64,000 nt of DNA. Source: Octopus vulgaris (taxonomy: Eukaryota). The notes under the pieces are model-generated. The model was not told where the DNA came from, ran no database searches, and was given only the letters and a program-made list of their open reading frames with translations. The stretch spans positions 14,570,001-14,634,000 of the forward strand of contig OX597833.1 of NCBI GenBank assembly GCA_951406725.2. The letters are read 5' to 3'. The translations under genes were made by a program, and so were the position numbers. Of this stretch, positions 13,293 through 64,000 are shown one piece after another. The first letter of the stretch is position 1; each line of letters opens with the position of its first letter.

Positions 13293-13445
13293 ATATATAT
13301 ATATAATATAATTATACTGAACCTTCAGTTTTTTTATGCTAGACCACTAGTGTGAAATCGATGTTAATTGAATTAATATCTAATTTCTCACCCTCATTTT
13401 AAAATTTAAAATTATATATACATATATATATATATATATATACAC

Positions 13446-14915
13446 ATAGGAGGTTACGTCAAAAAGTTCCCGAACTAGTTATGTTTAATAAAAATGACAA
13501 CTTATTTATGTAAGATTTAACAGGATCTCTGTCGAAATAATCACTTTGCATAGTAATACACTGGTCTCAACGTTCCTGTCTCTTTTCGAATCCGACCTGG
13601 AAATCTTTTTTTTTTTCCTTAAGGGAGTCGAGGACCCTCCGCAATTAGTTTTGCATCTCGGCAACGGTGTTAAAACCACGGCGACCTTTGAGGTACATTT
13701 TCATGTCGGGAAAGAGATGGAAGTCCGCAAGTGCTAAATCTGTCGAATAGGGGTTCTCGTGTGGAAGCGAGACCATGTTGTTTCTGGCGAGAAACTCACG
13801 GATGAGGAGAGCTCGGTGGCAGGGTGTACCGTCGTCGTAAAAAATCCTATTCTTCTTGTAGTTTTCGCCTAATGTCCTCTTTTAAACCCTCCAAAACGTC
13901 ACAGTAGATTTGTCAATTGACGTTCTGGCTCTGGAGGGCAAATTCACAATACCGCGAATGTCGTAAAAAATGAGAAGCATACTCTTGAGTTAGTAGCAAC
14001 TCTGTCGTGCTTTTGTCGGTCATGGAGACGAAGGTCTCTTCCGTTGTGACCCTAGCTTCTTCGTCTCATGGTTGTACTTGTAAACCCGACTCGCGTCACC
14101 GTTTTCCACCCTCCACATGAAGGATGGGCCTTCAATGGCAGGCTGACGGAGATCCTGACAGATTTCGTCGCGATTTTTTCCTGTTCAGTGGTCAACAGGC
14201 GGGGTCAAACGTCGTAGAGATACGCCGTATGTTCAATTCATACTTTAGGATTGCTAGACCCTCCACATGAAGGATGGGCCTTCAATGGCAGGCTGACGGA
14301 GATCTTGACAGATTTCGACGCGATGTTTTTTTTTTTTTCAGTTGTCAACAGGCGGGATCAAACGTGGCAGAGATACGCCGTATGTTCAATTCATACTTTA
14401 GGATTGCTGGTACCAATTTTTACGCAAGCAAACAGCAACAGAAACATCACTGATTGTCTTCTGACGATCTTCATGCACGAGCCGATGAATATTCTCTATA
14501 TTTCTGGGTCTGAGGCACATGGTGGGTCTTTCAGAACGCTTATCGTCTTCAAGGGATGTCCCTCCACTTTTGAAATACCCGCGCCACTCGAAACTTTGCA
14601 TACGACCCATTGCCTCATCACTATAACCTTTCCAAAACTTGCTCAATATCTCTGGACCAGACTTTCCAACTTTAACGCGAAATTTCATGTTGGCTCTTTG
14701 TGCCAACTTCCTGCCCATGACAAAATCGCAGACTACAGCATACACATTATAACAGATTCACCAGTTTCACAACTTACGAAGGAAACACAGCAATGTCACT
14801 TGGTACACTGACTCATGAAGGTCACTGCTAGCTCTTACTGCATAGGCAACCATGTGCTGCCTTCTAGAGACGAACAACAGAATTAGTTCGAGAACTTTTT
14901 GATACCACCTTTTTA
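13446..14915 (-). mobile_element. Decayed mariner (Tc1/mariner) transposon
   Basis: HTH N-terminus (QRANMKFRVKVGKS...FEW..YFKSGGTSLEDDKRSERP). Relics of the GDETW, HDNA and YSPDLAPxDF motifs (GDASRVY, DDGTPCH, PYSTDLALADF). Imperfect TIRs GGTTACGTCAAAAAGTTCCCGAACTA / TAGTTCGAGAACTTTTTGATACCACC. Confidence 0.88.
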
Positions 14916-16165: not shown

Positions 16166-16496
16166 ATTTCTTTATTACCCACTAGGGGCGACACAGAGGG
16201 GACACCACAAGACATTGGGGACATAGAACATTATAATTAAATTTATGAACAATGAATTATTAAATGAAAAAATGATAATATGAAAGCGATGCTAACGGCC
16301 CCATCCGCCAGCATCACTTACCTGTCCTTCGTCACCCATTTCCAATTACAATTTCTTCCTTTCTTATCACACTCTTCGTTTTCCTTTCATACTTCTCTAT
16401 CATTTCATCCTGAATTGTCACATTCATCAATTTTATACCCTCTTCCTCACACTTCCTCACCAATGTGTCCATAAATTCATCTTTCAAAACCGCGTA
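16166..16496 (-). mobile_element. 5'-truncated copy of the ORF1-only retroposon family, 17-bp TSD
   Basis: TSD ACCTGGAAGCATTTGGT at 16149-16165 and 16497-16513. 3' UTR, hairpin and tail align with 43164-43330. Peptide GYAVLKDEFMDTLVRKCEEE aligns with RYAVIEKKRIDEFVFRCERE. Confidence 0.85.
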
Positions 16497-16531
16497 ACCT
16501 GGAAGCATTTGGTCGAACAAATCACCTCTAA

Positions 16532-16906
16532 TCTCTCTCTATATAAATGGCAGTTTGTCTGTGTGTGTTTCTGTGTGTCTGTTAGGTTGTACGCTCACCC
16601 TGACCACGGCTTTCAACCGATTCTGATGAAACTTGACACACACATAGCCCAATGTCATAATTCGAAACTAACGCAGAGAAAATTTTGAAAAGTTCCCCCA
16701 GTTCTGAAAAAAATCGATAAATTCGACATGGGGTCGAGAATTAGAAACACAAACCACAGACTGTCTAGGGGACGCAACTCGACCATTTTAACTCTCAAAA
16801 AAAAATTTACCATAATTTTTTTTCCATTTTTTTGGCTATAACTCGCTAAAAATGCTTTATAGTTATTTCCCTTACAAACCCGAGCAACGCCGGGCGATAC
16901 TGCTAG
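16532..16906 (+). mobile_element. Non-autonomous Helitron (body type H1)
   Basis: A|TC 5' end, CCCGAGCAACGCCGGG subterminal hairpin, CTAG|T 3' end, no TSD. Near-identical copy at 37117-37492. Confidence 0.88.
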
Positions 16907-17204
16907 TACTTTTTAATTACGCTCTTCGCACGAAGAGAGCAGCGACGTTTATTTACAACTGTTTCAGTTTTACATAACGAAAGATCTAAGATACATATTC
17001 TAAGGAGTTTAAATTCATCGTGCGTTTATCTATATGTCATGCTGTGAGAATGAATAAATAAATACACGCATACATACATGTGATGGCTACAGACTTGTGT
17101 TCAAGTATTGCCATTGCCTGATCGAAACTCCCGCACATCCGAGGGCTACGACCAACTGTTTTTGTGGTAGGTCTTAATTTTTTTCAAGCGATGCATGTAC
17201 ATGA

Positions 17205-18402: not shown

Positions 18403-18808
18403 TATTTCTCTATTGCCCACAGGGGGCTAAACATAGAAGGTACAAACAAATGTATTAAGTCGGTTACATCGACCCCAATGCATAACTGGTACTTATTTAA
18501 TCGACCCCGAAAAGGATGAAAGGCAAAGTCAACCTCGGCGGAATTTGAACTCAGAACGTAACGGCAGACGAAATACCAATTTCTTTACTACCAATAAGGG
18601 GCTAAACACAGAGGGGACAAACAAGGACAGGCAAACGGGTTAAGTCGATTACATCGACCCCAGTGCGTAACTGGTACTTAATTTATCGACCCCGAAAGGA
18701 TGAAAAGTAAAGTCGACCTCGGCGGAATTTGGACTCAGAACCTAATAGAAGACGAAATACCGCTAAGCATTTCGCCCTGCGTGCTAACGTTTCTGCCAGC
18801 TCGCCGCC
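18403..18808 (-). mobile_element. SINE family A dimer within one 17-bp TSD
   Basis: TSD TTATCTTCAAAGAATAT at 18385-18401 and 18811-18827. Confidence 0.9.
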
Positions 18809-19787
18809 TTTTATCTTCAAAGAATATCGTTGGAGAAGAACTGCAGCGAGTAACGTGGCAAATTTCATGTATATGTATCGAGGACTGTCAAACCTGGATG
18901 AAATTAAATATATAAAAATCATTGGCGGCAGTTGAAATAACTGAAATAGAGAAATTACTGAGAAGCACAAAGAAAAGTTACAATTGATATCTGAAAGATA
19001 AGAAGAACCAGTTTATGTAACACGATAAATGTTTATTTATCGCAGAAGGAAGTACGAAGGAAATATCAAATAGATATTCATTAATGCGTCTGCATAAGAT
19101 GAAATTATTGTATTTCGTAGAAATATATTTACAGATCTAAAAGCCATTATATGTAGATTAACTAAATGGAGGTCGAGTTTTATTCGTCGTTGTGGAGACT
19201 GGATCTTAACATCATCGTCTCACCAAAAACTTATGGCTGATGTTTATGTTCTTAAACATCCAACTTTATGCATCATTGAAGTTTTACGATTTTAAAGATT
19301 CGATAAAGTAGGATATAAAAGTACAGAAGCTACTTAAAAATATATAGCGAAAGTTTGTATACCGGTAATATTTGGGATGTAATTGTAGGGAAATTGACGT
19401 GCAATGTTTTATAGTTGTGAGAGAGAGAAATGGTTTTCTCCTCGAAGAAAATGCTTTTAGAACGATCATCAGTCATTTCAACATGTGAAGCTGTTGACTC
19501 AACCAAACCAATAACTTTACGCTAAACCAACCAGTATATTAATGATGTAAGGCTTCCTAGCTCTGTGAATTTGTATGGGATACATTATCTTCTGTAGTCC
19601 TTTTAAAGTCATCATCAACCAGTCCATGTGAAGTGAATGTGACAACCCCGTTGCCACACCATAAATTTACTCAGGGTTTTGATGGTTTGATACAAAGAGT
19701 GGATGAATTGGTGCGCATAGACTCACGCATTGATGGAACTCTCCTAAACTAGCAAGTTACAAAGTCGAATAATAAAAACAACCTTGT

Positions 19788-20737: not shown

Positions 20738-21870
20738 TATTTCTTTACTGCCTACAAGGGGCGAGACATAGAGGGCACAAACAAGGACAGACAAAGGGAG
20801 TAAGTCGATTACATCGACCCCATTGCAAAACTGGTACTTTATTTATCGACCCCGAAAGGATGAAAGGTAAAGTCGACCCCGGCAGAATTTGAACTCAGAA
20901 CGTAGCGACAGACGAAATACCTATTTCTTTATTACCCACAAAGGGCTAAACACAGAGCGGACAAACAAGGACAGACATAGGTATTAAGTCGATTACATCG
21001 ACCCCAGTGCGTAACTGGTACTTAATTTATCGACCCCGAAAGGATGAAAGGCAAAGTCGACCTCGGCGTAATTTGAACTCACAACGTAACGCATACGAAA
21101 TACCTATTTCTTTATTACCCACAAAGGGCTAAACACAGAGGGGACAAACAAGGACAGACACAGGTATTAAGTCGATTACATCGACCCCAGTGCGTAACTG
21201 GTACTTAATTTATCGACCCCGAAAGGATGAAAGGCAAAGTCGACCTCGGCGTAATTTGAACTCACAACGTAACGCATACGAAATACCTATTTCTTTATTA
21301 CCCACAAGGGGCTAAACACAGAGGGGACAAACGAGGACAGACATAGGTATTAAGTCGATTACATCGACCCCAGTGCGTAACTGGTACTTAATTTATCGAC
21401 CCCGAAAGGATGAAAGGCAAAGTCGACTTCGGCGTAATTTGAACTCACAACGTAACGCATACGAAATACCTATTTCTTTATTACCCACAAGGGGCTAAAC
21501 ACAGAGGGGACAAACGAGGACAGACATAGGTATTAAGTCGATTACATCGACCCCAGTGCGTAACTGGTACTTAATTTATCGACCCCGAAAGGATGAAAGG
21601 CAAAGTCGACCTCGGCGTAATTTGAACTCACAACGTAACGCATACGAAATACCTATTTCTTTATTACCCACAAAGGGCTAAACACAGAGCGGACAAACAA
21701 GGACAGACATAGGTATTAAGTCGATTACATCGACCCCAGTGCGTAACTGGTACTTAATTTATCGACCCCGAAAGGATGAAAGGCAAAGTCGACCTCTGCG
21801 TAATTTGAACTCACAACGTAACCGCTAAGCATTTCGCCCGGCGCGCTAACGTTTCTGCCAGCTCGCCGCC
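20738..21870 (-). mobile_element. SINE family A hexamer (~182-bp units) within one 12-bp TSD
   Basis: Six units joined at GAAATA/GGTATTTCGT. TSD TTCTGTACACTT at 20721-20732 and 21871-21882. Confidence 0.92.
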
Positions 21871-22184
21871 TTCTGTACACTTTTGAAGTCAAATTTCAAG
21901 TAGCTCAGTGCTGTTCTTTTAAAGTATAATTGGAAGTTGTCATATGCTATGTTTATGGGGAATACTTGGTGTAACAATGGTTAGGTTAATGAAAATTGGA
22001 GGAAAATATAATTTACTGTTAAAACAGGTGAGACACCAATCGTGTATAATTGTACTAAGGAGAAATGTGTTGGTAAATTAATGAAACAGATTTCTCTCAC
22101 TTCGTCTCACTGTCTGTCTCTTGGTTTCTGTCCTTTTCACTCTTGGTATTTTTTTATCTGTCTTTCTGTCACTCACTACGCACG

Positions 22185-22993: not shown

Positions 22994-23344
22994 ACACCTA
23001 AACGCTATATCTATATACGAAAGCGTTTTCCTGGCCAAATGTAAGTTTTCCTTTACGATAAGTGAATACTTTCCTGAGAGAAAAGAGAAAACTTTTAATG
23101 ATACGTAAATTCTGTTTCATAAAGAATCTATTTCTGCGCGAAGAGTACCAATTCCTCATTAATTTCTTCGTTTTACTCGATTCCACAGAGGTTCAGCTTG
23201 ACGTGTTCGCATGTTTAATAGAATCTTGGAAATCCGCGGAACTTTTGACCGGCAGGTGCTAAAAACCAATTTGACTAATGGTATGAGTTCCACAAGTCGC
23301 TTTTAACTGGTGTTCTTCAAAAAGAAATTATCATAATAATATTC

Positions 23345-23550
23345 CTTTCTACTCTAGGCACAAGGCTCGAAATTTTGGAGGTGTAGGGTAGTCGATCAGA
23401 TCAACCCCAGTACGTAACTGGAGTCGATCTGATCGATCTGGTATAAAAGGCGGTGTCGACCTCGGCAGAATTTGAAATCCTAACGTTTGTGTTTACGTTC
23501 TGAGTTCAAATTCCGCCGAGGTCGACTTTGCTTTTCATCTTTGTGCCTAC
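23345..23550. mobile_element. Two opposed fragments of SINE family A (tail-2 type)
   Basis: TTTCTACTCTAGGCACAAGG tail on the minus strand, then a plus-strand ACGTTCTGAGTTCAAATTCCGCCGAGGTCGAC fragment. Confidence 0.65.
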
Positions 23551-28280: not shown

Positions 28281-29095
28281 TATAATCTACATACGTAAAT
28301 ATACGTAAACAAGCGTATATACACCATAACGTATATACGCACGCGAATATATTTAAAACCGTTTGTCAGGTATATTGAATATTAAAGTAGTATAACTTCA
28401 AATTGTAGATTGAAAGAAAGAATCGATAATATAATTAGAGGGATAGTGTAATAATGTAATGTAAAATAAATTTTGGCCTCGGCGAAATTTAAATGAGAAA
28501 ATTTAGTGACTGCCGAAAATCATCAAAAAAATTTTTACTGAGCTCATTAAAGTTCTATCATCACCATCGAATTACAATCAATGATACTAAAAATGATAAA
28601 TAAATACAATGGAAGTTATTAAGTAAATAATAAAAATAACAATGATAAAATTATGATAAAGAATGATGTAAAATAAAAGGAATCCATTCTGGTTTTCGAT
28701 GTCTTTAAAAACACATTTTGGTCGGCTGTAAATATTCGATATCTGTACAGCACACATTAAGCGATTGTAAAAGGGCTTTTGAGATGTGCAATAAAAATCA
28801 AAATTGTGAGGTATATTGTAGGCTAAATTGCATTGTCAGAAAAGAAAAACAATGAAATAACTCAAAAAGGTGCATTTAAAGGTAACGGTTACAAAAAGAC
28901 AATGAAAATGAAATAGAAATTAAACAGTAATAAAAGTTTGTAAACAGTCGAAGGTTTTCCTTGATGGTGTAAAAATGTGCAATGTAAGGGGAGATAAATG
29001 AACGATGAATGTTAAACAAAATGATGCCTATTTGTAGGTGGCGAACAAATGCGGAAGTCAAATATTATTATCAGTATGGTACTTTATCAGTTTAA

Positions 29096-29520
29096 GGCAG
29101 CGAGCTGGCAGAAACGTTTGCACGTCGGACGAAATGCTTTGCGGTATTTCGTCTGCCGCTACGTTCTGAGTTCAAATTCCGCTGAGGTCGACTTTGCCTT
29201 TCATCCTTTCGGGGTCGATTAAATAAGTACCAGTTATACACTGGGGTCGATATAATCGACTTAATCTGTTTGTGTGTCCTTGTTTGTCCTCTGTGTGTTT
29301 AGCCCCTTGTGTGCAGTAAAGAAATAGGTATTTCGTCTGCCGCTACGTTCTCAGTTCAAATTTCGCCGAGGTCGACTTTGCCTTTCATTCTTTCGGGGTC
29401 GATTAAATAAGTACCAGTTACACACTGGGGTCGATAAAATCGACTTAATCATCCGTTTGTCTGTCCTTGTTTGTCCCCTCTGTGTTTAGCCCCTTGTGTG
29501 CAGTAAAAAAATAGGTATTT
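29096..29520 (+). mobile_element. SINE family A dimer
   Basis: Two units joined at GAAATA/GGTATTTCG; ends with ATAGGTATTT. Confidence 0.9.
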
Positions 29521-30805: not shown

Positions 30806-31179
30806 AACACACACACATACATATATATATATATGCGCATGCGTGCGTGATTATATAACATTTATATGTATAATACTGAAACAAGTTGACTCAATCGATA
30901 CCTAAGGCTGTATGCTGTACGATGTTTGTGATACAACGGTACTGATAGCGCGAAAATAAAAATGATAAAAAGTTATTCCAATTCGAATCTTTATTATTTT
31001 ATATTTTATTGAAAGAATATCGACTGACTTGAAAATTTTTACTTTCTTATCAATGAATTCGATATCTCGATAATTAAATATTTGATTTTAAAAATTCTAT
31101 TTGCATTTATTTCGCAAATTTTGGACAGATTCGTAATATTTATTTGCTTTCGAATGTTGAAGTGTTATAGTTGTATAAT

Positions 31180-31942
31180 CTTTTCTACTCTAGGCACAAG
31201 GCCCGAAATTTTGGGGGAGGGGGCCAGTCGATCAGATCGACCTCAGAACGCAACTGGTACTCAATTTATCGACCCTGAAACGATGAAAGCAAAGTCGACC
31301 TCTGCGTAGTTTAAACTCAGAATGTAAACATAGACGAAATACCTATTTCTTTACTACCCACAAGGGGCTAAGCACAGAGGAGACAAACAAGGACAGACAA
31401 ATGGATTAAGTCGATTATATCGACCCCAGTGCGTAACTGGTACTTATTTAATCGACGCCGAAAGGATGAAAGGCAAAGTCGACCTCGGCGGAATTTGAAC
31501 TCAGAATGTAAACATAGACGAAATACCTGTTTCTTTACTACCCACAAGGGGCTAAACACAGAGAGGACAAACAAGGACAGACAGACGGATTAAGTCTATT
31601 ATATCGACCCCAGTGCGTAACTGGTACTTATTGAATCGACCCCGAAAGGATGAAAGGCAAAGTCGACCTCGGTGGAATTTGAACTCAGAACGTACGGCAG
31701 ACGAAATACCTACTTCTTTACTACCCACAAGGGGCTAAACACAGAGAGAACAAACAAGGACAGACAAATGGATTAAGTCGATTACATCGACCCCAGTGCA
31801 TAAATGGTACTTATTTAATCGACTCCGAAAGGATGAAAGGCAAAGTCGACCTCGGCGGAATTTGAACTCAGAATGTAACGGCAGACGAAATACCGCTAAG
31901 CATTTCGCCCGGCGTGCTACCGTTTCTGCCAGCTCGCCGCCT
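31180..31942 (-). mobile_element. SINE family A tetramer, last unit with tail-2
   Basis: Three tail-1 units plus a terminal unit ending CCCCAAAATTTCGGGCCTTGTGCCTAGAGTAGAAAAG. Confidence 0.9.
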
Positions 31943-31989
31943 TTGTGTTATAACTCTACAATGCTCTAGACATATATCTGTTATCTTTT

Positions 31990-32365: not shown

Positions 32366-32485
32366 TCGATCATCGGGCCCTTTGCTGTAAGAAACCCATG
32401 ATTATAGAAGTTCCAGTTGTGGCCTTCCCGTTCGTTATTGAGCTATATTACATGTACCACTATTTTATGGAATACGCTTTTGTAA

Positions 32486-32990
32486 GGCGCCGAGCTGGCA
32501 GAAACGTCTGCCATTACGTTCTGAGTTTAAATTCCGTCGAGGTCGACTTTGCCTTTCATCCTTTCGGGGTCGATTAAATAAGTACCAGTTACGCACTGGG
32601 GTCGATATAATAGACTTAATCCGTCTGTCTGTCCTTGTTTGTCCTCTCTGTGTTTAGCCCCTTGTGGGCAGTAAAGAAATAGGTATTTCGACTGCCGCTA
32701 CGTTCTGAGTTCAAAATCCACCGAGGTCGACTTTGCCTTTCATCCTTTCGGGGTCGATTGATTAACTAATCAAACTTCGATTTCATAAATGATGACCTAT
32801 GCATTCCATTGTCCGGGTGGCGCGTATTTGCTACGAGATCTGTTTAAACATAAGGCGGCGAACTGGCAGAAACGTTAGCAAGCCAGACGAACTGCTTAGT
32901 ACCAGTTACGCACTGGGGACCATATAATCGACTTGATCCGTTTGTCTGTCCTCTCTGTGTTTGGCCCCTTGTGGCTAGTAAAGAAATAGG
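32486..32990 (+). mobile_element. SINE family A fragments (partial dimer 32486-32758, deleted monomer 32853-32990)
   Basis: Direct sequence match to family A. Confidence 0.8.
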
Positions 32991-33825: not shown

Positions 33826-34479
33826 TATTTCTACTCTAGGCACAAGGCCCGAAATTTTGGGGGAGGGGGCAGTCGATTATAATCACCCCAGTACGCAACT
33901 GGTACTTAATTCATGGACCCCGAAAGGATGACAGGAAAAGTCGACCTCGATGTAATTTGAACTCAAAACGTAAAGACAGACGGAAAACCGGTAATCATTT
34001 CACCCGGCGTACTAACGTTTCTTATTTCTTTATCACCCACAAGGGGCTAAACATAGAGGGGACAATCAAGGACAGACAAAGGGATTAAGTCGATTACATC
34101 GACCCCAGTGCATAATTGGTAGTTATTTAATCGATCCCGAAAGGATGAAAGGCAAAGTCGACATGGGCGGAATTTGAACTCAAAACGTAAAGACAGACGG
34201 AAAACCGCTAAGCATTTCACCCGGCGTGCTAACGTTTCTATTTCTTTACTACCCACAAGGGGCTACACACAGACGGGACAATCAAGGACACACACAGACA
34301 CACAGACGGATTAAGTCGATTAGATCGACCCCAGTGCGAAACTGGTACTTAATTTATCGACCCCGAAAGGATGAAAGGCAAAGTCGACTTCGGCGGTATT
34401 TGAACTCAGAACGCAGCGGCAGACAAAATACTGCTACGCATTTCGCCCGGCGTGCTAACGATTCTGCCAGCTCGCTGCC
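33826..34479 (-). mobile_element. SINE family A trimer, last unit with tail-2
   Basis: Units joined at GAAATA/(A)GAAACGTTAG, a second junction type. Confidence 0.88.
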
Positions 34480-35517
34480 TTACGTTTATACGTATTGTTC
34501 CCTCGATAAGTTGTCAATTTACTAAATTATGTAAGCAAGCAAGATAACCGATTTATGTATCCAAATGATTAGAAACGAAAATCTCCCGCAGGGCATATAA
34601 TTCTTCGAATAATGATTTTTTTTTTTTACACTGACGAAACTCTGCAGTCATTCAAAATTAACTCTAGTTTATTACTATTTCTCGACTCACAGGAATGAAA
34701 GGCAAATACGAACTTAAGTGAGATTCAACATCAAACACAAATATTTTCTTCGACTCGTTAGTGCTTTTGGTATTCTACTACATCTAATTATGTTAAATGG
34801 TCACAGATTTCGACAGACAAATACAATCGATTAAATCTTATCAGTTAAATATTTTCTCAATTCCTTATGAAAGGCGAAATACTCCCCAAGGGAGTTTCGA
34901 ACATAAAGGAAGAAATATAAATTCATTCCACAAATTAATTTCTCTGCTACTCTATTAATTCTGCCGTCGTCCACCCTGGCAAATATATAAATATACACTG
35001 ATTGATTTATCATTATCTTTAGTTGATCTCGCTTCCTCTGTTGTAGTCTGGTGAGAGATTTTAAAACTGCACTAGGCAGAAATACCAGTCTATATTATAT
35101 AAGTTCCAAATATCATTAGCTTCAAGAAAGTTTATATATCTTGTCTTAAATTTCATTAGGTATTGCGCCAATTGAATAAAACATTTTCTGTGATGTCTTT
35201 TGAAAGAGTCATGGCTGCTCTGTAGTTTGGAATTTCTAAATATAAAGCATGTATTCCGGATTCTTATGCAATGTAAGCACTCTGTTCTGTATCCTCAGAC
35301 ATGTAAAGACACGGATAATGTATTATAATAGGATTTAGATTTGAAATTAAACTCTACTTCGCCAGTAAATAACAAATTGTTGTGAAAGAGCTAATTTATT
35401 ATGATATCCTTTAAATTATAACGATAATGTTGATTATATTTTTGCTGCGATGAATGTGACCAGCGGAAGAACAGAATTCTTAACAAGACTCAAACTTCGC
35501 AAATGGTTATGTATTAC

Positions 35518-36980: not shown

Positions 36981-37116
36981 TTCACAGATAGTATTTATAA
37001 TGCGTGCGTTATCTGATCGATTTCTTTTTCTGATAACCCTAGCCTATCCACATTGTCACTCGAGCATTTAAAACCAAAACAAAGTGCACCAAGTATAAAA
37101 ATGTAAATTTGAAATA

Positions 37117-37492
37117 TCTCTCTATATAAACGGCAGTTTGTCTGTCTGCGTGTCTGTGTGTCTGTTAGGTTGTACCCTGACCCTGACCACGGCTTTCAAC
37201 CGATTCTGATGAAACTTGACACACACATAGCCCAATGTCATAATTCAAAACTAACGCAGTGAAAATTTTGAAAAAAGTTCCCCCAGTTCTGAAAAAAAAT
37301 CGATAAATTCGACATGGGGTCGAGAATCAGAAACACAAACCACAGACTGTCTAGGGGACGCAACTCGACCTTTTTAACTCTCAAAAAAAATTTACCATAA
37401 TTTTTTTTTCCATTTTTTTGGCTATAACTCTCTAAAAATGCTTTATAGTTATTTCCCTTACAAACCCGGGCAACGCCGGGCGATACTGCTAG
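37117..37492 (+). mobile_element. Non-autonomous Helitron (body type H1)
   Basis: A|TC ... CCCGGGCAACGCCGGG hairpin ... CTAG|T. Copy of 16532-16906. Confidence 0.88.
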
Positions 37493-37949
37493 TCTCGATA
37501 TAAAAGCGGGAGGTTTCGAATCTGTTTTGCAGAAGGGATATTCACATCAGCAGGACAGCTAACTTTTGTGAAAGTGCATGGGTTTTCGTTTCAGTGCCAA
37601 ACAACAATATTCTGCCAGTTATGTTTACACTTGGCAGAAGTTTTGATGGAAAAGTTATATCTGTAACCTTTGTGTTCATGTTTAGAAGTGGCTGTGTGGT
37701 AAGTAGCTTGCTTACTTTAGTACAGAGTGGACGCGTTTTTTTTTCGCGGTGGAACTCACGTCTGTGAAATAGTGAAGCACGACTACTAGGTAAGACACCT
37801 GTTTTCTGGGACTTAGTGGGCGTCCGTTGCTCGTATTATTTATGTTTTCCACACATTTTCAACTCATAATTTTGCCACGTGATGTCTAATGAATCTCCAG
37901 TATTTTTGCCCCTTTTATATTTTCCTAATATATATATATATATATATAT

Positions 37950-38310: not shown

Positions 38311-39355
38311 ATATATATATATATATATATATATACAGAGACATGTATATACATATATACAAACGTACTTATATACATACATATGTGTGTGTGTGCATGT
38401 ATTTCAATTAAATCACACGCATATACACGCATAGAGACACACGCATATGTTCCTTACCACAGAAAATTCTGTAAGCTAGAAGCACTTCTCAAATTGTATT
38501 CTAAACCACGTCAGATAACCCTATCCCTTTTCAATTTCCCCGGGAAGTAATTCCGATATAATCTACGCATCTTCTACAGAAGCAATCTAATACAAAATAA
38601 GATGAGACCATTCTGAACAACAAATACACTGTATTTTCATTGGAGATTGATCCTTCAACAAAGCTGATTACTTATGTGTCTTTTAAATTTCCCTTTGTGG
38701 ATCTGTATTAACATGGTAGAATTTATTTTAAATTTCCTGAATACCATCTACCATTTCTTAAAAAATGTTATATTGATATACAGCAAGCAATAAACAATTT
38801 ATAAAATTTATTTATTGCTTGAACGAAAATATATACTTGATTAATTCATATAATTAAATTGAATCTAGTTTTTCAGATTCTTTTTTCAATTAGGCCCGCG
38901 TTTAATTGACGAATAAACATTATAAAACAAAAGCTTTTAAAATCTCAATGAGATTTTTTCTCATAAATCTGATTTGTGTCGTAGCAATTATAACACGCAA
39001 CTAGATTCAGCCATCATTAGAAAATTACTGATTTTGTGCTTCTCTTGTATAAAGGTCTTCACGGGATCGTTCTACAAACAGCATAGAACTTCTGATGTAT
39101 AAAGCAGGTTTCTATTTCGATAGCCCCTCACATGTACATTTTACCCCATGAATTACATTTTTGAGCAGTAAGATCTACCTTTCGTAAAGGGACAGTGGTA
39201 ATTTTTTAAGAAAATCATTCGGACGGTCTTATATATAAGCAAATTGTAGTTGCAAATTTCGTTCAGTTCTGTACACGGCAAATGCAGAAAGCCAGCATCT
39301 TCAACATTTACCCCATCAAAATGGTTCATATAAATTCATTATCTGTGGTAAGTAA

Positions 39356-39790
39356 GCCGGCGAGCTGGCGGAAACGTTAGCACGTCGGGCAAAATGCTTA
39401 GGAGTATTTCGATAACTTAAGTACGTTCTGAGTTCAAATTCCGCCGAGGTCGACTTTGCCTTTCATCCTTTCGGGGTCGATTAAATAATTACCAGTTACG
39501 CACTGGGGTCGATGCAATCGACTTAATCCATTTGTCTGTCCTTGTTTGTCCTCTCTGTATGTAGCTCCTTGTGGGCGGTAAAGAAATAAGTAACGTTAGC
39601 ACGTCGGGGGAAATTCTTAGCGATATTTCGTCTGTTTTTACGTTCTGAGTTCAAATTCCGCCGAGGTCGATTTTGCCTTTCATCATTTCGAGGTCGATAA
39701 ATTAAGTACCGGTTGTATACTCGAGTCAATGTAATCGACTGGCCCGCTCCTCAAAACGTCGGGATTTGTGTCAAGAGTAGAAACGAATGT
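39356..39790 (+). mobile_element. SINE family A dimer, second unit with tail-2
   Basis: Junction GAAATAAGT/AACGTTAGCACG; ends TTGTGTCAAGAGTAGAAA. Confidence 0.85.
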
Positions 39791-40257
39791 ATTCTAATTC
39801 AGTCAGGGCAAACATATAGGACTAGAAACTGTATACAACAAATATCAACCGGGTTGTTGACAAATAGTTCAGTGAACTAAGCGTTCATACTGTCTACTGG
39901 GCTACTGAATTGTAATTAATTATTGGTAAATTGGATGCCTTTAATTAGTGTAGCGTATTATCGAATTTTAATTAAAACTACTTTGTTAGCTTAAGTGGTT
40001 TATTTTAGGCAATCAACATTTCTTAACTCATTACATTATATATTAGCGGACACGAAACTGATTAAGAACTGTTTCCCGTTTTGGCAGAATGACAAATATT
40101 TTTAAGGCAAGGAATTGATCGATTTCATTGATCGCAAATTTTACCGGTACTTCATTTTATTGAGCACAGAGCAATGACATGTAAAGTTAGGGCTCGTTAG
40201 CTCGGCCCTCTAACGATTTTGTCCACTGCAATCTTAATTAAGGAATGTAATTAATAC

Positions 40258-40473
40258 TATCTACTATAGGCACAAGACCTTAAATATTCAGGTGTGTGGC
40301 GGGGCTTGTTGATTACATTACTCTCAGTGGGTAACTGGTACTTTTCTCATCGACCACGAAAGGTTGAAAGGCAAAGTCGACCTGGGCGGAATTTGAACTC
40401 AGAACCCAAGGAGGGACGAAATGCCGCTAAAAAGTTCGGCTGATGTGCGAACGGTTCTGCTAGCTTGCCGCCT
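40258..40473 (-). mobile_element. Older SINE family A monomer with tail-2
   Basis: Diverged colinear match. Confidence 0.7.
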
Positions 40474-40605
40474 TAACTTAATGAAAAGTATTTAATGATA
40501 TTTAATAATATACTTTTGGATAGATCGCTACATTACCTCTATTGTTGTTTTACTATTTTCATGCAGCAACAGCTCTCAGTAAATGTCTTCCATTTTTATT
40601 AATTA

Positions 40606-40913
40606 CTAGCAGTATCGCCCGGCGTTGCTCGGGTTTGTAAGGGAAATAACTATATAAGCATTTTTAGAGAGTTACTTCCCTTATATAACCCGAGCAAAAA
40701 TCCTTAAAAATGCGGAAAAATGATGGTAAATATTTTTTTAAATCGTAGACTCATCGTAGACGTTCGCTAATACCCAGAAGGGCTCGATATGAATGACGAC
40801 TATAAGATACCCGCTTTTGGTTAAACTGCATCGCAAAATGTGGGAGTAGTTAGGAATATAAACGGAGGAGACAGAGTCTCACACACACAACTTCAATTTT
40901 ATATATAAAGAGA
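40606..40913 (-). mobile_element. Non-autonomous Helitron (body type H2)
   Basis: Reverse strand A|TC...CCCGAGCAACGCCGGG...CTAG|T. Body matches 63470-63766. Confidence 0.88.
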
Positions 40914-41912
40914 TTTTGGCAAGGCACATTTAGTGCGTAGGATGTTCGGCTCACGTTTGCAAGGTCGTGAGTTCAAACGTTGCTCCAGTCCACTCAGATG
41001 GCAAAAATGAGTTGTATCTGTTATTCTAAGGGTCATTCTGTTTCACGCTGAGTCTCCCTGAGAACGTTAGCGGTATGTATGTCTGTGGAAAGCTCAGCCA
41101 CCTGCATGTTAACGGATGAACTTGAACACTTGTCTTAGTACCGACGGAGTACCAGTTCTTTTTTTTTTAGTATTTTTAGACACTAGTATAATGCCATGTC
41201 AGGAACCGAACACGTTCTGTGGTTCTCTAGGGCAAACTTTTTTTCGGTAATTTTGTTCATTTGATTATCTTATCATCTCATTTGGAATTAGCATACTAAA
41301 TAAACAACTGAACGTCATTATTATTTTAATGAATGACTTTTGGAAAACACAGGCAATTGTTGAAGACAGGTAGCAAATGCCTACACTCGGTTTCTTTATT
41401 AGCCACAAGGGCCCAAACATAGAGGGGGCAAACAAGGACAGACAGGACACCACAGAGGAGACAATACATACACCGAATATGATGAGATGATTATACAATA
41501 ATGGGGTTATGAATGGCTGCATGCGCCCTCATCACGTGCATAACCATTAATCTTTTTAAACTGTCCGTTTTTACCATGTATTTACATAACAATTATCGTC
41601 TGCCATTACAATTATTTGAACCGTTATATACGTTCTCTAAAATTGTTCTTCTATTTTCCGATATTATTAAACATAACATAAAACGCTCTTTCTTTTTCCT
41701 TTTTTCTCCTTTTTCTTTTTTCCTGTGGATTTGACATATTTACTTTTTAGTAATATTTCATTAGTGGTTCGATTTCTACTAATTCAACTACTCGTGGCAA
41801 TTCCTTGAATTCCACCCTTATTCCTGATGGGTAGATATTATCTCCACACATTTCTTGCAGCCTCTTATAACTTTCCTCTTCAATTACTATCGCCTTCATG
41901 TTCTCTGCATAT

Positions 41913-42305
41913 ACTCTTTTACTCTTTTACTTGTTTCAGTCATTTGACCGCGGCCATGCTGGAGCACCGCCTTTAGTCGAGCAAATGGACCCCGGGACTT
42001 ATTCTTTGTAAGCCCAGTACTTATTCTATCGGTCTCTTTTTGCCGAACCGCTGAGTTACGGGGACGTGAACACACCAGCATCGGTTGTCAAGCAAAGCTA
42101 GAGGGACAAACACAGACACACAAATACATATATATATACATATATACGACAGGCTTCTTTCAGTTTCCGTCTACCAAATCCACTCACAAGGCATTGGTCG
42201 GCCCGGGGCTATAGCAGAAGACACTTGCCCAAGATGCCACGCAGTGGGACTGAACCCGGAACCATGTGGTTGGTAAGCAATCTACTTACCACATAGCCAC
42301 TCCTG
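41913..42305 (-). mobile_element. SINE family B
   Basis: Full-length match. Confidence 0.9.
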
Positions 42306-42582
42306 TTGTTTTTTTTGTTTTACAACAGTCATATCATCATCTGTTTCCTTTGTCTCGACCTGTTCTATCTGGTCCCCGCTCTCTTGTCTCTCCACCTGCT
42401 CTGCTTGCTGCTTTTTCTAGCTGCACCATGACTTCATGTGGCCCTTCTCACCACATCCAAAACATATAGGCGGCCTGCCCTCTACCTTCATTCCCAATGC
42501 AAAGCTGTCAGGCAGCACTATCTCTTCCGCAATCCCATTTAAGTCGTTCACTGTTGCCTGGATAGGAAGCTCTATCCTATAT

Positions 42583-42976
42583 AGGCACAGGAGTGGCTGT
42601 GTGGTAAGTAGCTTGCTAACCAACCACATGGTTGCGGGTTCAGTCCCACTGCGTGGCATCTTGGGCAAGTGTCTTCTGCTATAGCCCCGGGCCGACCAAT
42701 GCCTTGTGAGTGGATTTGGTAGATGGAAACTGAAAGAAGCCTGTCGTATATATGTATATATATATATATGTGTGTATGTGTTTGTCCCCCTAGCATTGCT
42801 TGACAACCGATGCTGGTGTGTCTACGTCCCCGCCACTTAGCGGTTCGGCAAAAGAGACCGATAGAATAAGTACTGGGCTTACAAAGAATAAGTTCCGGGG
42901 TCGATTTGATCGACTAAAGGCGGTGCTTCAGCATGGCCGCAGTCAAATGACTGAAACAAGTAAAAGAGTAAAGAGT
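42583..42976 (+). mobile_element. SINE family B
   Basis: Full-length match; inserted at a TATA site that splits the ORF1-like frame. Confidence 0.9.
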
Positions 42977-43163
42977 ATATCCCCAGTAGTCGAGCTTGTT
43001 GGTTCCAGGCAGCAAATGTCTACACACTTTTTGTAATGAATCATCATTCTTTCATGTTTCCCCTTCGTTGGCTCTCCCTGCTGTACCTCACTCCTCTCTA
43101 CCTCTGTTGCTAGTATTCTCGTCTCTGCTTGCCCTTCCTTCTCACTCATGTCTCGACACTCTG

Positions 43164-44821
43164 ATTTCTTTATTACCCACCAGGGGGCGACGTAGAGTGG
43201 GACACTACAAAACATTGGGGACATAGAACATAACAATTAAAATTATGAAGAATGAATTTTTAGACGAAAAAATGATAATATGAAAGCGATGCTAACGGCC
43301 CCATCCGTCAGCATCACTTACCTGTCCTTTGGTTTTCACTTTCACTCAGATGTTCATTCCCAATACGAAAACCATCCATATCCATTCTTACTCCGAAATA
43401 CTCCTCCATATTTTCCACGAATTCATCGCTCATTCTTGTATCTTTCTCCTCCCAATTCTCCCTTTCACACCTGAACACAAACTCATCTATTCTCTTCTTT
43501 TCAATCACTGCATACCTGGTCTCACCTATTTCATACCATTTATACTCCTCCATTACCCTTTTAACTTCCTTCTCGTCTGTCATAGTATAAATGTTCGGCC
43601 TGGGTTCGTTTTCTATGTGTTGTTTTTGCGTTTTCTGTTTTTGTTTTCTTGTTGGAGGGGAGCGGGTGGGCTCACTGACTGCAGGGACAGGGTGGGACTC
43701 AGAGGGTGTGGGTGGTGTTGGGGTGGGTTGGGGTTCAATATTGTTCGGTCTTCTTCCTCTCTTTCTTTTTCTCCTCTCCTCAACCCATTCGTTTTGGTCT
43801 TCCTCTCCTGTTGTTTCACTCTCTGCCTGCTCTTTGTTTTCTTTCTCTCCTTGCGTCTCTGTAACGGTTACCTTGGGTGGGGAAGGGCAGAAAGCTCTTA
43901 TGTGGCCCCTCAGACCACACTTATAGCACCTTGGTGCTCTGCCCTCCACCTATACTCTCATGACGATGTTTCCTATACAAATATTATTTGCCATCCTTTC
44001 AATTATCTCCTCCTCTGCTTGAATACTTATTTCCAGCATTTTTCCATGCCATCCTTCGCTCTTTACGGTGGCCTGTAGTATGTCCACCTCCTCTTCTAAG
44101 TCCTTTATCACTGCTGCTGTGACTCATTCTCCTTCTATGTGGGGGGGGGGGGGTATCCCCTCCACCCTTATCCTCGTTGTTCTTTTATTCTTGTATGTTG
44201 GTAGCATATATACTTTATCTGTTTTTAACGCTTTAGCCGCCATTCTTCTCGCTGTACTTTTACTACCAAACTGTACCACAATTGTTCCGTATTCCATTCC
44301 TCTTGCTACGTACACAACTTCCTCCTCCACTCTTCTTAATGCCTCCTCTATGTCTTTCATCTTTACTGTTTCTACTCTTTTGTTGTCTTTGACGAATGTT
44401 CTATATTTTATTACTCTTTCTTCGAACCATTCGCTCCGCTTTTCTGGCGGTAGCAGTTTCACTTCACCTCCCTCCTTTGTCATATAGGCTTGATAGCCTG
44501 GTAGCTTTTTCAGGTCTATCTCTTTATCTCCTGTTTTTCTTACGGCTCCCGCGTATGTCTTCCCGGTCTTTACGTCCATCTTCTTTACGGCATCCCTCAA
44601 TTCGTCCTCGGAGGTCGACACCTCCGGTAGACTTACGAACAGTCTTTCCTCGTCTCCCATTAGGGAGGGGCGGTCCATTACTCTATGTCTGTCTTAATAG
44701 ACAGACAACGGCCGACAACCCAACAACAGTGCGACAAGGTCGCGCGTATAAATCCGTATAACAAAAGGGTACAGTTCAACAATAAATCCAAACAACAAAA
44801 TATCAATAACTCACGCGATAG
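43164..44821 (-). mobile_element. Apparently full-length ORF1-only (HAL1-like) non-autonomous retroposon, ~1.66 kb, 18-bp TSD
   Basis: TSD TCATGTC(T/G)CGACACTCTG at 43146-43163 and 44822-44839. ~143-nt 5' UTR, one ORF, ~150-nt 3' UTR with hairpin and AATAAAGAAAT end. No RT or endonuclease. Confidence 0.85.
43314..44678 (-). pseudogene. gag/ORF1-like CCHC zinc-knuckle protein (~450 codons, disrupted)
   Basis: ORFs 44124-44678 and 43314-43949 join through a TGA, one frameshift (~44040) and a TAG. Motifs KTYAGAV, RRM-like IVVQFGSKSTARR, IRVEGIPP, VEGRAPRCYKCGLRGHIRAFC and WVEERRKRKR resemble L1/Tx1-type ORF1. Confidence 0.8.
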
Positions 44822-45035
44822 TCATGTCGCGACACTCTGTCTTCAAAAAATTCTATGTCGATTTAAATACTATTTTAAAATAAATACTGGTATTCATATA
44901 ATGGACTAAACCACGCCAATGGAATGCCCCAACATAACCGAAGTCTAAAGGTCAAAGTTCGTAAAAGAATAAAGTTACATGCAACTTTTCAAAATATTTT
45001 CCCCATTTATCATATCTCTTTTTGTCTTATCCTTT

Positions 45036-47738: not shown

Positions 47739-48150
47739 CGAGCTGGCAGAACCGTTAGCACGCCGGGCGAAATGCTGAGCGGTATTTTGTCTGCGGCTAC
47801 GTTCTGAGTTCAAATTCCACCGAGGTCGACTTTGCCTTTCATCCTTTCGGGGTCGATAAATTAAGTACCAGTTACACACTGGGGTCGATGTAATCGACTT
47901 AATCCGTTTGTCTGTCCTTGTTTGTCCTCTCTGTGTTTAGCCCCTGTGTGTAATAAAGAAATAAGTATTTCGTCTGTCGTTACGTTCTGAGTTCAAATGC
48001 CACCGAGGTCGACTTTGCCTTTCATCCTTTCGGGGTCGATTAAATAAGTACCAGTTACGCACTGGGGTCGATATAATCGACTTAATCCGTTTGTCTGTCC
48101 TTGTTTGTCCCCTCTGTGTTTAGCCCCTTGTGAGTAATACAGAAATAGGT
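47739..48150 (+). mobile_element. SINE family A dimer
   Basis: Junction GAAATA/AGTATTTCGTC; ends GAAATAGGTAT. Confidence 0.9.
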
Positions 48151-51750: not shown

Positions 51751-51755
51751 CCTCT

Positions 51756-51984
51756 ATTTCTTTACTACCCACAAGCGGCTAAACATAGAGGGGACAAACA
51801 AGGACAGACAAACGGATTAAGTCGATTATATCGACCCCAGTGCGTAACTGGTACTTATTTAATCGACCCCGAAAGGATGAAAGGTTAAGTCGACCTCGGC
51901 GGAATTTGAACTCAGAACGTAACGGCAGACGAAATACCGCTAAGCATTTCGCCTGGCGTGCTAACGTTTCTGCCAGCTCACCGT
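51756..51984 (-). mobile_element. SINE family A monomer, 10-bp TSD
   Basis: TSD CTTTCTCCTC on both sides. Confidence 0.9.
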
Positions 51985-52232
51985 CTTTCTCCTCCCTCTG
52001 CACTGGATCTGTCGGTCTCATTCTCTTTATCTCCACTACCACACACAATATAAATCTATGTATACATATATACACACATATACACATATATGTATGTATG
52101 TGTCTGTCTGACTGTATCTCTTTCTCCCTCTCTCTCTCTCTCACACACTCAGCATCTCGACATATATATAAGTTGTTAGCCAAACTGAGATTATGATAGA
52201 AAAAGCAGCTCTCACATGAGTATTCGACTGTG

Positions 52233-54949: not shown

Positions 54950-55500
54950 TTTGAATTTTACCGTCGCAAAACCACTCACCTGAAGAGTGGAAGAGCTGCA
55001 TATTTCTCTCAGTAGAAAGCAAAAGTATGTGTTTCTCACTGGGTCCAGTATCGTAAAGTAAGAAATTTTCCTCATTGCATTTTTTTTTGTGTGTTTTATC
55101 TGGAATGATCTTGTCATGCAAGGTTCTCGGTATGGGATGCAGAGCGTGTATAGCTTGCTTATATCTTCTCATTGAACACCTAATAGTGATCATGGTTGGT
55201 AGATGACTAGAAATTTTCCCCCGAAACATTATGTAAAGATTGTGTTATGATCTGTTGTGAACTTTGTTGGGTTGTAATAGCTTTCTCCTTCATTTCTTCA
55301 CCTACAGATAACAGATATCGACAAAGAATATCTGCAGCGTGAGTATGCTCGGGTGTCTGGCTGATTATTTCTTCTCCACACAGTATAATTTTGGTCTTGC
55401 AGTTGTTATGTCGGCGGCTTTCACATTCGTAGAACCTATTTCCAGATGACAAGCACTTTTTCTTAACGTAGACGTAACCAGTATGGAAAAGCTATAGAGT
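54950..55500 (-). pseudogene. MULE/Mutator transposase N-terminal relic with FLYWCH zinc finger
   Basis: GYVYVKKK..GNRFYECESRRHNNCKTKI...EHTH, then after a frameshift ENFLLYDTG..KHILLLSTERNMQLF....WFCDG, which contains the first catalytic D. Confidence 0.82.
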
Positions 55501-63357: not shown

Positions 63358-63469
63358 TATATATATATATGCATTTATAATTGCAGTTTTATATTTAAAC
63401 TAACAGATAAATCTGCTGGACTCTTAGGTTGCCAGATTGCTAATATTACTTACAATGTTTATATATATA

Positions 63470-63766
63470 TCTATATATATAAAAGTCAAGTTGTGTGTCT
63501 GTCTCCTCCGATTTAGATTCCTAACTACTCCCACATTTTGTGGTGCAGTTTAACCAAAAGCAGGTATCTTATAGTCGTGATTCATATCGAGCCCTTCTGG
63601 GTATTAGCGCGCGTCGACGATGAGTCTACGATTTAAAAAAAAATTACCATCATTTTTTCCATTTTTAATGCATTTTTTTGCTATTATATAAGGGAAGTAA
63701 CTCTCTAAAAATGCTTATATAGTTATTTCCTTTAAAAACCCGAGCAACGCCGGGCGATACTGCTAG
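63470..63766 (+). mobile_element. Non-autonomous Helitron (body type H2)
   Basis: A|TC ... CCCGAGCAACGCCGGG ... CTAG|T. Body matches 40606-40913. Confidence 0.88.
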
Positions 63767-64000
63767 TATATATATATTATAGAAACTTCAGGCGAGAAGC
63801 CCATAAACTCCTGCAGGCGCAAATTCAACTAAAACAGTTGCAAATTCTCATGGATTTAAAAACTAATATATGCTAGACGAAGGAGATGTGTATTACATAA
63901 GAGTGTATGATAACATCATCAAATGAATCAATACGGAGATCAGTATTATGGCGGATCGATTGCTGACGGTGGAAGGGAGCTGAGAATATTTTGGAAAACC

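What the first reader, a model, noticed from the sequence alone, without database searches (positions are those of the whole stretch)
41391..41450. SINE A tail-1 is the 3' end of the ORF1-only elements: a possible three-tier parasite system
Seen: the reverse strand of 41391-41445 (TGTCTGTCCTTGTTTGCCCCCTCTATGTTTGGGCCCCTTGTGGCTAATAAAGAAA) is almost the SINE A tail (TGTCTGTCCTTGTTTGTCCCCTCTATGTTTAGCCCCTTGTGGGTAGTAAAGAAATA). The elements at 43164 and 16166 end in the related GTCCC.CTCT..GTCGCCCC..GTGGGTAATAAAGAAAT. Known: SINEs share 3' tails with the LINE that mobilises them. Inference: an unseen autonomous LINE, ORF1-only helpers and the very abundant SINE A all use one 3' recognition signal, and the helpers might supply ORF1p to the SINE.
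Basis: partly seen in the sequence, partly recalled or inferred. Interest (0 to 1): 0.8.

Follow-up and report, generated by a model that had tools for sequence, protein, structure and literature searches.

The report
Octopus half-LINEs share a SINE's hairpin
Three octopus jumping elements that code only for an RNA-binding protein end in the same short tail, with a predicted RNA hairpin, as a very common short repeat, so both likely borrow the copying enzyme of a full-size element that I could not find; nothing shows that one helps the other.

Summary
The 54-nt tail at 41391-41444 matches SINE A tail-1 (48 of 54 to the consensus) and lies inside a 20-bp target-site duplication (TSD) that brackets a whole 5'-truncated ORF1-only element (E2). 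It is not a separate SINE with its own TSD. E1 (43164-44821, apparently full length, one 455-codon frame with two stops) and E3 also have 17-18-bp TSDs, share the last ~40 nt with SINE A, and share a further ~100 nt of 3' UTR with E2.

ORF1 is a type I LINE ORF1: a relative folds as two RRM-like domains plus a CCHC knuckle, and relatives are named from octopods only.

New here: all these ends, and SINE A's other tail (tail-2), keep a predicted 4-bp hairpin with compensatory changes, as in 'stringent' LINE tails.

The autonomous partner was not found, because no genome was held. L1-Tx1 is the likeliest clade, by inference. No evidence supports ORF1p being supplied to the SINE; two parallel parasites of one LINE lineage fit better. 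This is an octopus counterpart of HAL1, HeT-A and Ag-Sponge with a SINE-shared hairpin tail: a new variant of a known kind.

The parts
41391..41444 (-). E2 3' tail, homologous to SINE A tail-1 (the finding)
   Evidence: 78-89% to 27 SINE A ends; 48 of 54 to the consensus
41401..41413 (-). Predicted hairpin in the E2 tail, GGCC-CUUGU-GGCU; the second pair is flipped relative to tail-1
41390..43005 (-). E2: 5'-truncated ORF1-only retroposon, about 0.8 kb net of two nested SINE B copies; 358-nt 3' UTR; no RT
   Evidence: TSD; translations; lengths
41367..41386 (.). E2 target-site duplication, 3' copy (20 bp, 2 mismatches)
43006..43025 (.). E2 target-site duplication, 5' copy
42423..42464 (-). E2 CCHC zinc knuckle; the surrounding 50 aa are 34% identical to E1 ORF1
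   Evidence: Pfam zf-CCHC E 0.014, below its cut-off; 17 of 50 identities
41903..42316 (-). SINE B copy nested in E2 (unrelated tail; approximate ends)
42583..42977 (+). Second SINE B copy nested in E2, opposite orientation, 94% to the first (approximate ends)
43164..44821 (-). E1: apparently full-length ORF1-only retroposon, 1658 nt (143-nt 5' UTR, ORF1, 150-nt 3' UTR, no poly(A))
   Evidence: TSD; lengths; family depth
43314..44678 (-). E1 ORF1, 455 codons in one frame, broken by stops at 44124-44126 and 43950-43952; two RRM-like domains (predicted for a relative), CCHC knuckle, low-complexity linker, C-terminal domain
43175..43188 (-). E1 predicted hairpin (6-nt loop in this copy; some contigs lack one C)
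   Evidence: table 4
43146..43163 (.). E1 target-site duplication, 3' copy (18 bp, 1 mismatch)
44822..44839 (.). E1 target-site duplication, 5' copy
16166..16496 (-). E3: 5'-truncated copy of another ORF1-only subfamily; last 166 nt are 91% identical to E1, protein end only 32% identical over 37 aa
16149..16165 (.). E3 target-site duplication, 3' copy (17 bp, exact; 5' copy at 16497-16513)
16177..16189 (-). E3 predicted hairpin, GCCC-CUAGU-GGGU
51755..51987 (-). Example single full-length SINE A with tail-1 (233 nt), used as the coordinate frame
31192..31204 (-). Example hairpin of SINE A tail-2, GGGC-CUUGU-GCCU: same loop, two pairs flipped relative to tail-1

Best explanation
E1, E2 and E3 are TSD-bounded non-LTR retroposons that encode only an ORF1 protein and end in the same tail as SINE A, and both they and the SINE are likely copied in trans by the reverse transcriptase of an unseen autonomous LINE lineage (likely L1-Tx1) that is predicted to recognise the shared 3' hairpin. 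Shown: element ends, TSDs, absence of RT between the TSDs, tail and 3' UTR homology, and covariation in the hairpin. Predicted: the two-RRM fold of ORF1 (modelled on a relative) and the RNA hairpin itself. Inferred: ORF2p binds the hairpin, primes at an endonuclease nick and leaves a 10-21-bp TSD; each ORF1-only element likely uses its ORF1p on its own RNA; SINE A likely took its tail from this LINE family's 3' end and has swapped tails at least once (tail-1 and tail-2). The two non-autonomous classes would be parallel parasites of one LINE lineage, not a chain.
For: TSDs of 18, 20 and 17 bp bracket E1, E2 and E3; 2 of 300 random flank pairs scored as high. SINE A loci ending in tail-1 have 10-21-bp TSDs in 7 of 10 cases; SINE B has none of 10 bp or more in 7 copies. 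The E2 3' UTR aligns with those of E1 (0 of 300 shuffles as high) and E3 (1 of 300) for ~100 nt upstream of the SINE-shared part. So the ORF1-only families share a ~150-nt 3' module, of which the SINE has only the end. Hairpin on 31 distinct ends (35 aligned): 88.7% of cells paired against 78.3% shuffled, 8 two-sided changes against 2.1, covariation 0.348 against 0.171 (0 of 500 shuffles as high for each); slid controls pair at most 49%. RNAalifold independently finds 3 of the 4 pairs. A hairpin-plus-end scan gave 20 hits, all SINE A or E-element ends, and 0 in 30 shuffles. ORF1: 94 relatives at E up to 0.001. Of the 29 looked up, the species-named ones are Octopus or Argonauta. A model of relative P0024 (mean pLDDT 79.7) matches tandem-RRM proteins, and an Atlas row at 0.90 is ZCCHC3-like. 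DNA-run contigs pile up on E1's 3' part (summed depth 14,000-298,000 in X4 against about 50 at the unique junction), as expected for many 5'-truncated copies, and they bridge the ORF end and 3' UTR. O. vulgaris has 80 L1-Tx1 families, 13 recently active (PMC13282606). Stringent LINEs recognise a 3' stem-loop through ORF2p (PMC4176376, passages).
Against: No RT-coding element with this tail was seen, so the partner and its clade are inferred; type I ORF1 also occurs outside L1-Tx1 (PMC5203782). The helix has only 4 pairs and the two-sided changes may be as few as 2-3 events. The measure that counts pairs is not significant (263 of 500 shuffles as high; further pair types 41 of 500), and the tool warns that related rows can beat shuffles without structure. 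Single-sequence folds of six tails are unremarkable (z from -1.8 to +1.1), and only 2 of the 6 minimum-energy structures contain the hairpin. E1 and E3 do not align significantly with most tail-2 copies at sequence level. Contig depth is not a copy number.
Confidence: 0.65

Rival explanations
1. One reading: the ORF1-only elements make ORF1p that works in trans and helps SINE A move with the autonomous LINE's RT.
For: Shared tail and hairpin. A large, diverse ORF1 family in octopods. Kojima notes that such ORF1 proteins likely multimerise with those of autonomous elements (PMC5786205, passage).
Against: No call shows trans action. ORF1-defective L1 still mobilises SINEs (PMC5203782, passage citing Dewannieux 2003). 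A HAL1-like reporter needs its own functional ORF1p plus an ORF2p driver (bioRxiv 10.1101/2024.05.03.592410, passage). All three window copies are broken or truncated.
Confidence: 0.1
2. E2's SINE-like 54 nt were grafted from a SINE A RNA: RT began on the SINE, switched at a TGTCC microhomology onto the E2 RNA, and inserted the chimera with one TSD.
For: 48 of 54 identity to the consensus is within the 84-96% range of 25 SINE A units. E2 has E3-like sequence right up to the join and is ~13 nt longer there than E1. A TSD around the whole element does not exclude a chimera.
Against: Two of E2's 6 differences are a compensatory pair (tail positions 33 and 43). That pair occurs in none of the 27 tail-1 copies (one has the 3' change alone) but matches tail-2. 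E1 and E3 carry their own version of the tail, so the family had this signal anyway.
Confidence: 0.15
3. A split retrotransposon: the RT partner has no ORF1 of its own and depends on the ORF1-only elements for ORF1p, so the two halves cooperate.
For: No long protein joining this ORF1 to EN/RT was found. The 8 looked-up relatives held only as Logan records sit on contigs of 1.3-2.4 kb, near E1's 1.66 kb. ORF1s diverged to 16-37% identity (one at 68%) have persisted. The most abundant O. vulgaris LINEs (RTE, Dong-R4) are single-ORF clades (recalled).
Against: Both negative searches are weak by the tool's own words, and LINE ORF1 and ORF2 are normally separate proteins. Logan contigs are short in general. 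The one RTE 3' end in the window does not resemble tail-1 (492 of 500 shuffles as high). L1-Tx1 families averaging ~5.4 kb are recently active (2.29 Mb over 421 insertions).
Confidence: 0.08

Closest known systems
ORF1-present bipartite non-autonomous LINEs: HAL1 (L1 clade), HeT-A (Jockey clade), Ag-Sponge (CR1 clade) (PMC5786205 and PMC5753468, passages read)
   Same: Encodes only ORF1p, lacks RT, is multi-copy and 5'-truncated, and needs another element's ORF2p.
   Different: Type I ORF1 (RRM-like plus CCHC) rather than mammalian type II; no poly(A) but a hairpin tail shared with a SINE; several deeply diverged families in a mollusc; parent LINE not identified.
Stringent LINE-SINE pairs such as eel UnaL2/UnaSINE and zebrafish ZfL2 (PMC4176376, passages); bivalve CR1 and L2 SINE tails with compensatory changes (PMC4824008, passages)
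   Same: A short shared 3' tail with a small stem-loop and compensatory changes; tail swapping on a SINE body.
   Different: The tail is shared with ORF1-only elements, and the LINE itself is unseen. TSDs of 10-21 bp and type I ORF1 point away from L2/CR1 (typical L2/CR1 TSD behaviour recalled, not from a call).
L1-Tx1 clade LINEs
   Same: Type I ORF1 occurs in this group (PMC5203782); target-specific insertion is described for the Tx group (PMC3747384, passage); 80 families in O. vulgaris (PMC13282606, supplement).
   Different: The clade is defined by RT, which these elements lack, so the assignment is an inference.
Octopus tRNA-derived SINEs of Ohshima and Okada 1994 (seen only as citations; OR1 and OR2 named in PMC4824008 and PMC4758252)
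   Same: SINE A is an abundant octopus SINE with A- and B-box-like motifs visible by eye.
   Different: I could not see their sequences, so SINE A may or may not be one of them. My impression that its body is a Meta-type domain is recalled and untested.

Membership tests
ORF1-present non-autonomous LINE (HAL1-like class) | Encodes an ORF1-type protein only | tested here: met
   One 455-codon frame in E1; CCHC knuckle; RRM-like folds in relative P0024
ORF1-present non-autonomous LINE (HAL1-like class) | No endonuclease or RT between the element's ends | tested here: met
   E1 has 143- and 150-nt UTRs and E2 a 358-nt 3' UTR; no RT family in the 150 longest of 267 non-repetitive window ORFs
ORF1-present non-autonomous LINE (HAL1-like class) | Inserted by target-primed reverse transcription: TSD and 5' truncation | tested here: met
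   TSDs of 17-20 bp in 3 of 3; E2 and E3 begin inside ORF1
ORF1-present non-autonomous LINE (HAL1-like class) | The structure is family-wide, not a one-copy deletion | tested here: met
   For the E1 family only: contigs of other copies in X1, X2 and X4 run from the ORF end into the 3' UTR (table 8); E3 has the same layout.
ORF1-present non-autonomous LINE (HAL1-like class) | An autonomous parent LINE with matching ends exists | not testable with these tools
   No genome held; collection scans empty
HAL1 in the strict sense | Mammalian L1-derived type II ORF1 and a poly(A) tail | tested here: not met
   No Transposase_22 hit; a CCHC knuckle is present; the ends read AAAGAAAT(A) directly into the TSD
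L1-Tx1 clade | RT sequence groups with Tx1 | not testable with these tools
   No RT linked to these elements was available
L1-Tx1 clade | Type I ORF1 (RRM plus CCHC) | tested here: met
   not diagnostic, since type I occurs in other clades
L1-Tx1 clade | Target-site preference (many members) | tested here: inconclusive
   E1-E3 sites share no motif; SINE A arrays restart at two fixed positions
Stringent LINE-SINE partnership | SINE 3' tail homologous to a LINE-type 3' end | tested here: met
   Met for the ORF1-only elements; the RT-coding LINE was not seen
Stringent LINE-SINE partnership | Conserved stem-loop with compensatory changes | tested here: met
   only 4 pairs and few independent events
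Stringent LINE-SINE partnership | The RT binds the stem-loop and needs it for mobilisation | not testable with these tools
   Needs a binding or retrotransposition assay
tRNA-derived SINE (SINE A) | tRNA-like head with A and B boxes | tested here: inconclusive
   Box-like motifs are visible in the alignment; ARAGORN found none in the window; Rfam found no tRNA match on one copy
Octopus SINEs OR1/OR2 or MetaSINE | Identity to the published consensus or central domain | not testable with these tools
   Motif searches of papers and supplements found no sequence; one supplementary file could not be searched

The most novel reading that the evidence does not exclude
Octopods carry a split retrotransposon. 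Many old ORF1-only families supply the RNA-binding protein and an RT-only partner supplies the enzyme; both, along with the two tail versions of SINE A, are addressed by one co-evolving 4-bp hairpin; and the shared endonuclease prefers two sites inside SINE A itself, which builds the tandem SINE arrays.
Probability: 0.08. Interest if true: 0.8.

Novelty: new variant of a known kind. Interest (0 to 1): 0.42.

Why it matters
SINEs fill about 12% of the O. vulgaris genome and most families there are unclassified (PMC13282606). None of the passages I read names an octopus SINE's LINE partner. A hairpin tail shared with ORF1-only elements gives a precise probe for finding that partner, and a natural series of compensatory variants for testing 3' recognition. 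It would extend ORF1-only parasites, known from L1, Jockey and CR1, to a mollusc and probably to a type I ORF1 lineage. It also shows that many octopus 'uncharacterized' CCHC gene models are likely transposon ORF1s. It does not overturn current models unless the split-element reading proves true.

Tried and rejected
Searches for the autonomous partner, all empty:
- Tail or SINE motifs gave 0 matches in metagenome, viral and prokaryote collections, as expected for an octopus repeat.
- Long proteins joining this ORF1 to RT: none at E up to 0.001 (322-2000 aa, 1092-3115 aa). Both are weak evidence.
- The Petrosino transcriptome file gave only 84 characters of text, and 4 of its 8 held files plus 2 oversize files were not searched. 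Either could hold the partner or a prior name for these elements.

Expression: no RNA holder listed. X1 and X2 are only guessed to be RNA. Their contigs cover E1 from about 43600 to 44839-44844 with 3-5 differences, which I do not count as transcription.

Rejected:
- A frameshift in E1: the ORF is one frame with two stops.
- 43027-43163 as part of E2: the TSD ends E2 at 43005.
- The window's RTE fragment as tail donor.
- Gene model P0014, which joins this ORF1 end to an endonuclease-like stretch: taken as a spliced prediction across elements (no Pfam hit).
- Atlas rows under 0.9 for E1's N-terminal piece: leads only.
- The PDB sequence search matched mainly zinc-knuckle proteins.

Earlier scan notes: nothing for this genome or these sequences.

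Literature: ten searches showed no report of octopus ORF1-only elements or of this tail. Subscription papers (Ohshima and Okada 1994, Bao and Jurka 2010) and Repbase were not visible.

Full report
Source. The window is octopus DNA. A named Octopus vulgaris gene model (P0020) is identical to two separate stretches of it. No whole genome was held, so the work rests on the window, protein collections, one laying of sequencing-run contigs, and papers.

Observation. A scan of the whole window gave 30 places, the 27 SINE ends plus 41391, 43164 and 16166, with no background. The latter two share about the last 40 nt, with indels; 0 of 1000 shuffles reached their scores against each of three SINE tails.

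Anatomy. All three are separate insertions with their own TSDs; 2 of 300 random flank pairs scored as high.
- E1 is 43164-44821 (18-bp TSD, 1 mismatch): a 143-nt 5' UTR, one 455-codon frame broken by two stops, and a 150-nt 3' UTR without poly(A). Contigs of other copies read a tryptophan codon at the first stop (5 in X4, 4 in X8).
- E2 is 41390-43005 (20-bp TSD, 2 mismatches). It starts inside ORF1, holds two nested SINE B copies, and has a 358-nt 3' UTR.
- E3 is 16166-16496 (17-bp exact TSD). It is 91% identical to E1 over the last 166 nt but only 32% over 37 aa of the protein end.
No RT domain was found in the 150 longest of 267 non-repetitive ORFs of the window. Because the TSD brackets all of E2, the tail is not a separately inserted SINE.

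The protein. E1 and E2 have a CCHC knuckle (Pfam, below its cut-off) and are 34% identical over 50 aa. E1's N-terminal 183 aa found 94 relatives. Of 29 looked up, those with a species name are O. vulgaris, O. bimaculoides, O. sinensis or Argonauta hians. A model of the relative P0024, from a 54-row alignment (mean pLDDT 79.7), matches tandem-RRM proteins by Foldseek (best E 1.2e-5). VIA-align gives La RRM at Z 9.7, rmsd 2.4 over 82 residues for the first domain; the second matches RRM/ACT-like folds at Z about 8. The Atlas lists CCHC and ZCCHC3-like clusters at 0.90-0.92. This is type I ORF1 as defined in PMC5203782 (passages), which is found in several LINE clades.

The family. On E1 with flanks, summed contig depth in DNA run X4 was 14,000-298,000 over 43166-43732, 43-1,605 over 43985-44740, and about 50 at the unique junction; X8 was similar. 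This is not a copy number, but it fits many 5'-truncated copies. Contigs bridge the ORF end and 3' UTR, and loose ends show further subfamilies that share the tail. No run is on record as RNA, so expression is not shown.

The signal. E2's 3' UTR aligns with those of E1 and E3 for ~100 nt upstream of the SINE-shared part (0 and 1 of 300 shuffles as high). The ORF1-only families therefore share a ~150-nt module, and the SINE has only its end, the usual pattern when a SINE takes a LINE tail. Two of E2's six differences from tail-1 flip one base pair of a 4-bp hairpin:
- tail-1: GCCC-CUUGU-GGGU
- E2: GGCC-CUUGU-GGCU
- SINE A tail-2: GGGC-CUUGU-GCCU
- E3: GCCC-CUAGU-GGGU
On 31 distinct rows, pairing (88.7% against 78.3%), two-sided cells (8 against 2.1) and covariation (0.348 against 0.171) beat all 500 shuffles, and slid controls pair at most 49%. 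The pair-count measures were not significant (263 and 41 of 500). RNAalifold finds 3 of the 4 pairs. Against this, single-tail folds are unremarkable, the helix is short, the rows are related, and the events may be only 2-3. SINE A tail-1 loci have 10-21-bp TSDs in 7 of 10 cases, like E1-E3; SINE B has none in 7; the 4 tail-2-ended loci have no convincing TSD.

Mechanism. Most likely an autonomous LINE's ORF2p binds the hairpin and copies either RNA at an endonuclease nick (inferred from stringent LINEs, PMC4176376, passages). L1-Tx1 is the likeliest clade, given type I ORF1, long TSDs and 13 recently active families in O. vulgaris (PMC13282606, main text parts 1-2 of 3 and supplement). That is inference, and the partner was not found. 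ORF1-defective L1 still moves SINEs, and a HAL1-like reporter needs its own ORF1p, so use in cis is the simpler reading. A template-switch graft of E2's last 54 nt remains possible (0.15). A split element with an RT-only partner is not excluded (0.08).

A side result. Nine of 18 SINE A loci are head-to-tail arrays, and all 17 junctions restart at SINE position 50 (14 junctions, 7 loci) or 17 (3 junctions, 2 loci). In two arrays the next-to-last unit shares rare bases with a final tail-2 unit just after the junction. This points to copying at the DNA level, by insertion into an older SINE or unequal crossing-over. One X1 contig joins another ORF1-type element's tail to SINE A at about position 17. 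That would tie the two to one machinery, but it is a single contig and could be an assembly join through the shared tail.

Comparison and novelty. ORF1-only non-autonomous LINEs are known: HAL1, HeT-A and Ag-Sponge (PMC5786205, PMC5753468, passages). SINE-LINE tail sharing with compensatory stem-loops is known, including in molluscs (PMC4824008, passages). I found no report of this combination in octopus in ten searches of the open library; subscription papers, Repbase and two repeat or transcript data files were out of reach. Other papers were seen as passages only (PMC9115989, PMC9223172, PMC3747384, PMC4758252, PMC10351740, PMC10294476, PMC8967140). Verdict: a real, well-supported new variant of a known kind, interest 0.42.

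Noticed in passing
window 8155-8732, 18403-18810, 20738-21872, 29094-29513, 31176-31943, 32483-32768, 33826-34481, 39354-39786, 47740-48147: SINE A head-to-tail arrays: 9 of 18 loci, with all 17 junctions restarting at SINE position 50 or 17. Two outer target sites (29094 and 47740 loci) also begin GGTA, like position 50. Suggests self-targeted insertion followed by unequal crossing-over.
   Followed up: partly
window 31176-31226, 33826-33870, 39740-39786, 23340-23390, 40256-40307: SINE A tail-2 keeps the same hairpin loop with flipped stem pairs. These copies are more diverged (75-88% to the consensus body) and are the last unit in 3 arrays, so tail-2 looks like the older tail.
   Followed up: partly
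window 43312-43330 and 16312-16330 (minus strand): The ORF1 stop region contains a consensus splice donor (CAG|GTAAGT). Several O. vulgaris gene models (P0004, P0011, P0012, P0014, P0017, P0018, P0020) leave the element there and join unrelated exons, so annotation is contaminated by this family.
   Followed up: no
window 43027-43163: The stretch between E2 and E1 is itself repeated (contig depth 700-1,600 in X4) and reads as a charged open frame on the minus strand. It may be a fourth, older element into which E1 and E2 inserted.
   Followed up: no
window 41903-42316 and 42583-42977: Two SINE B copies, 94% identical and inverted, sit 270 bp apart inside E2. SINE B shows no TSD of 10 bp or more in 7 copies, so it likely uses another LINE.
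   Followed up: partly
window 3415-4070 (minus strand): 3' fragment that looks like an RTE-type LINE C-terminus (label recalled; no Pfam hit). Its end does not resemble tail-1.
   Followed up: partly
window 55210-55491 (minus strand): FLYWCH zinc-finger fragment (Pfam E 1.3e-8), probably from a DNA transposon.
   Followed up: no
window 13430-14910: Decayed Mariner-like transposase frames (label recalled, no Pfam hit) with an internal ~150-bp duplication at 14108-14408.
   Followed up: no
window 16530-16911, 37113-37502, 40601-40914, 63467-63776: Another repeat family, up to 95% identical between copies; one copy lies 16 bp from E3's 5' TSD.
   Followed up: no
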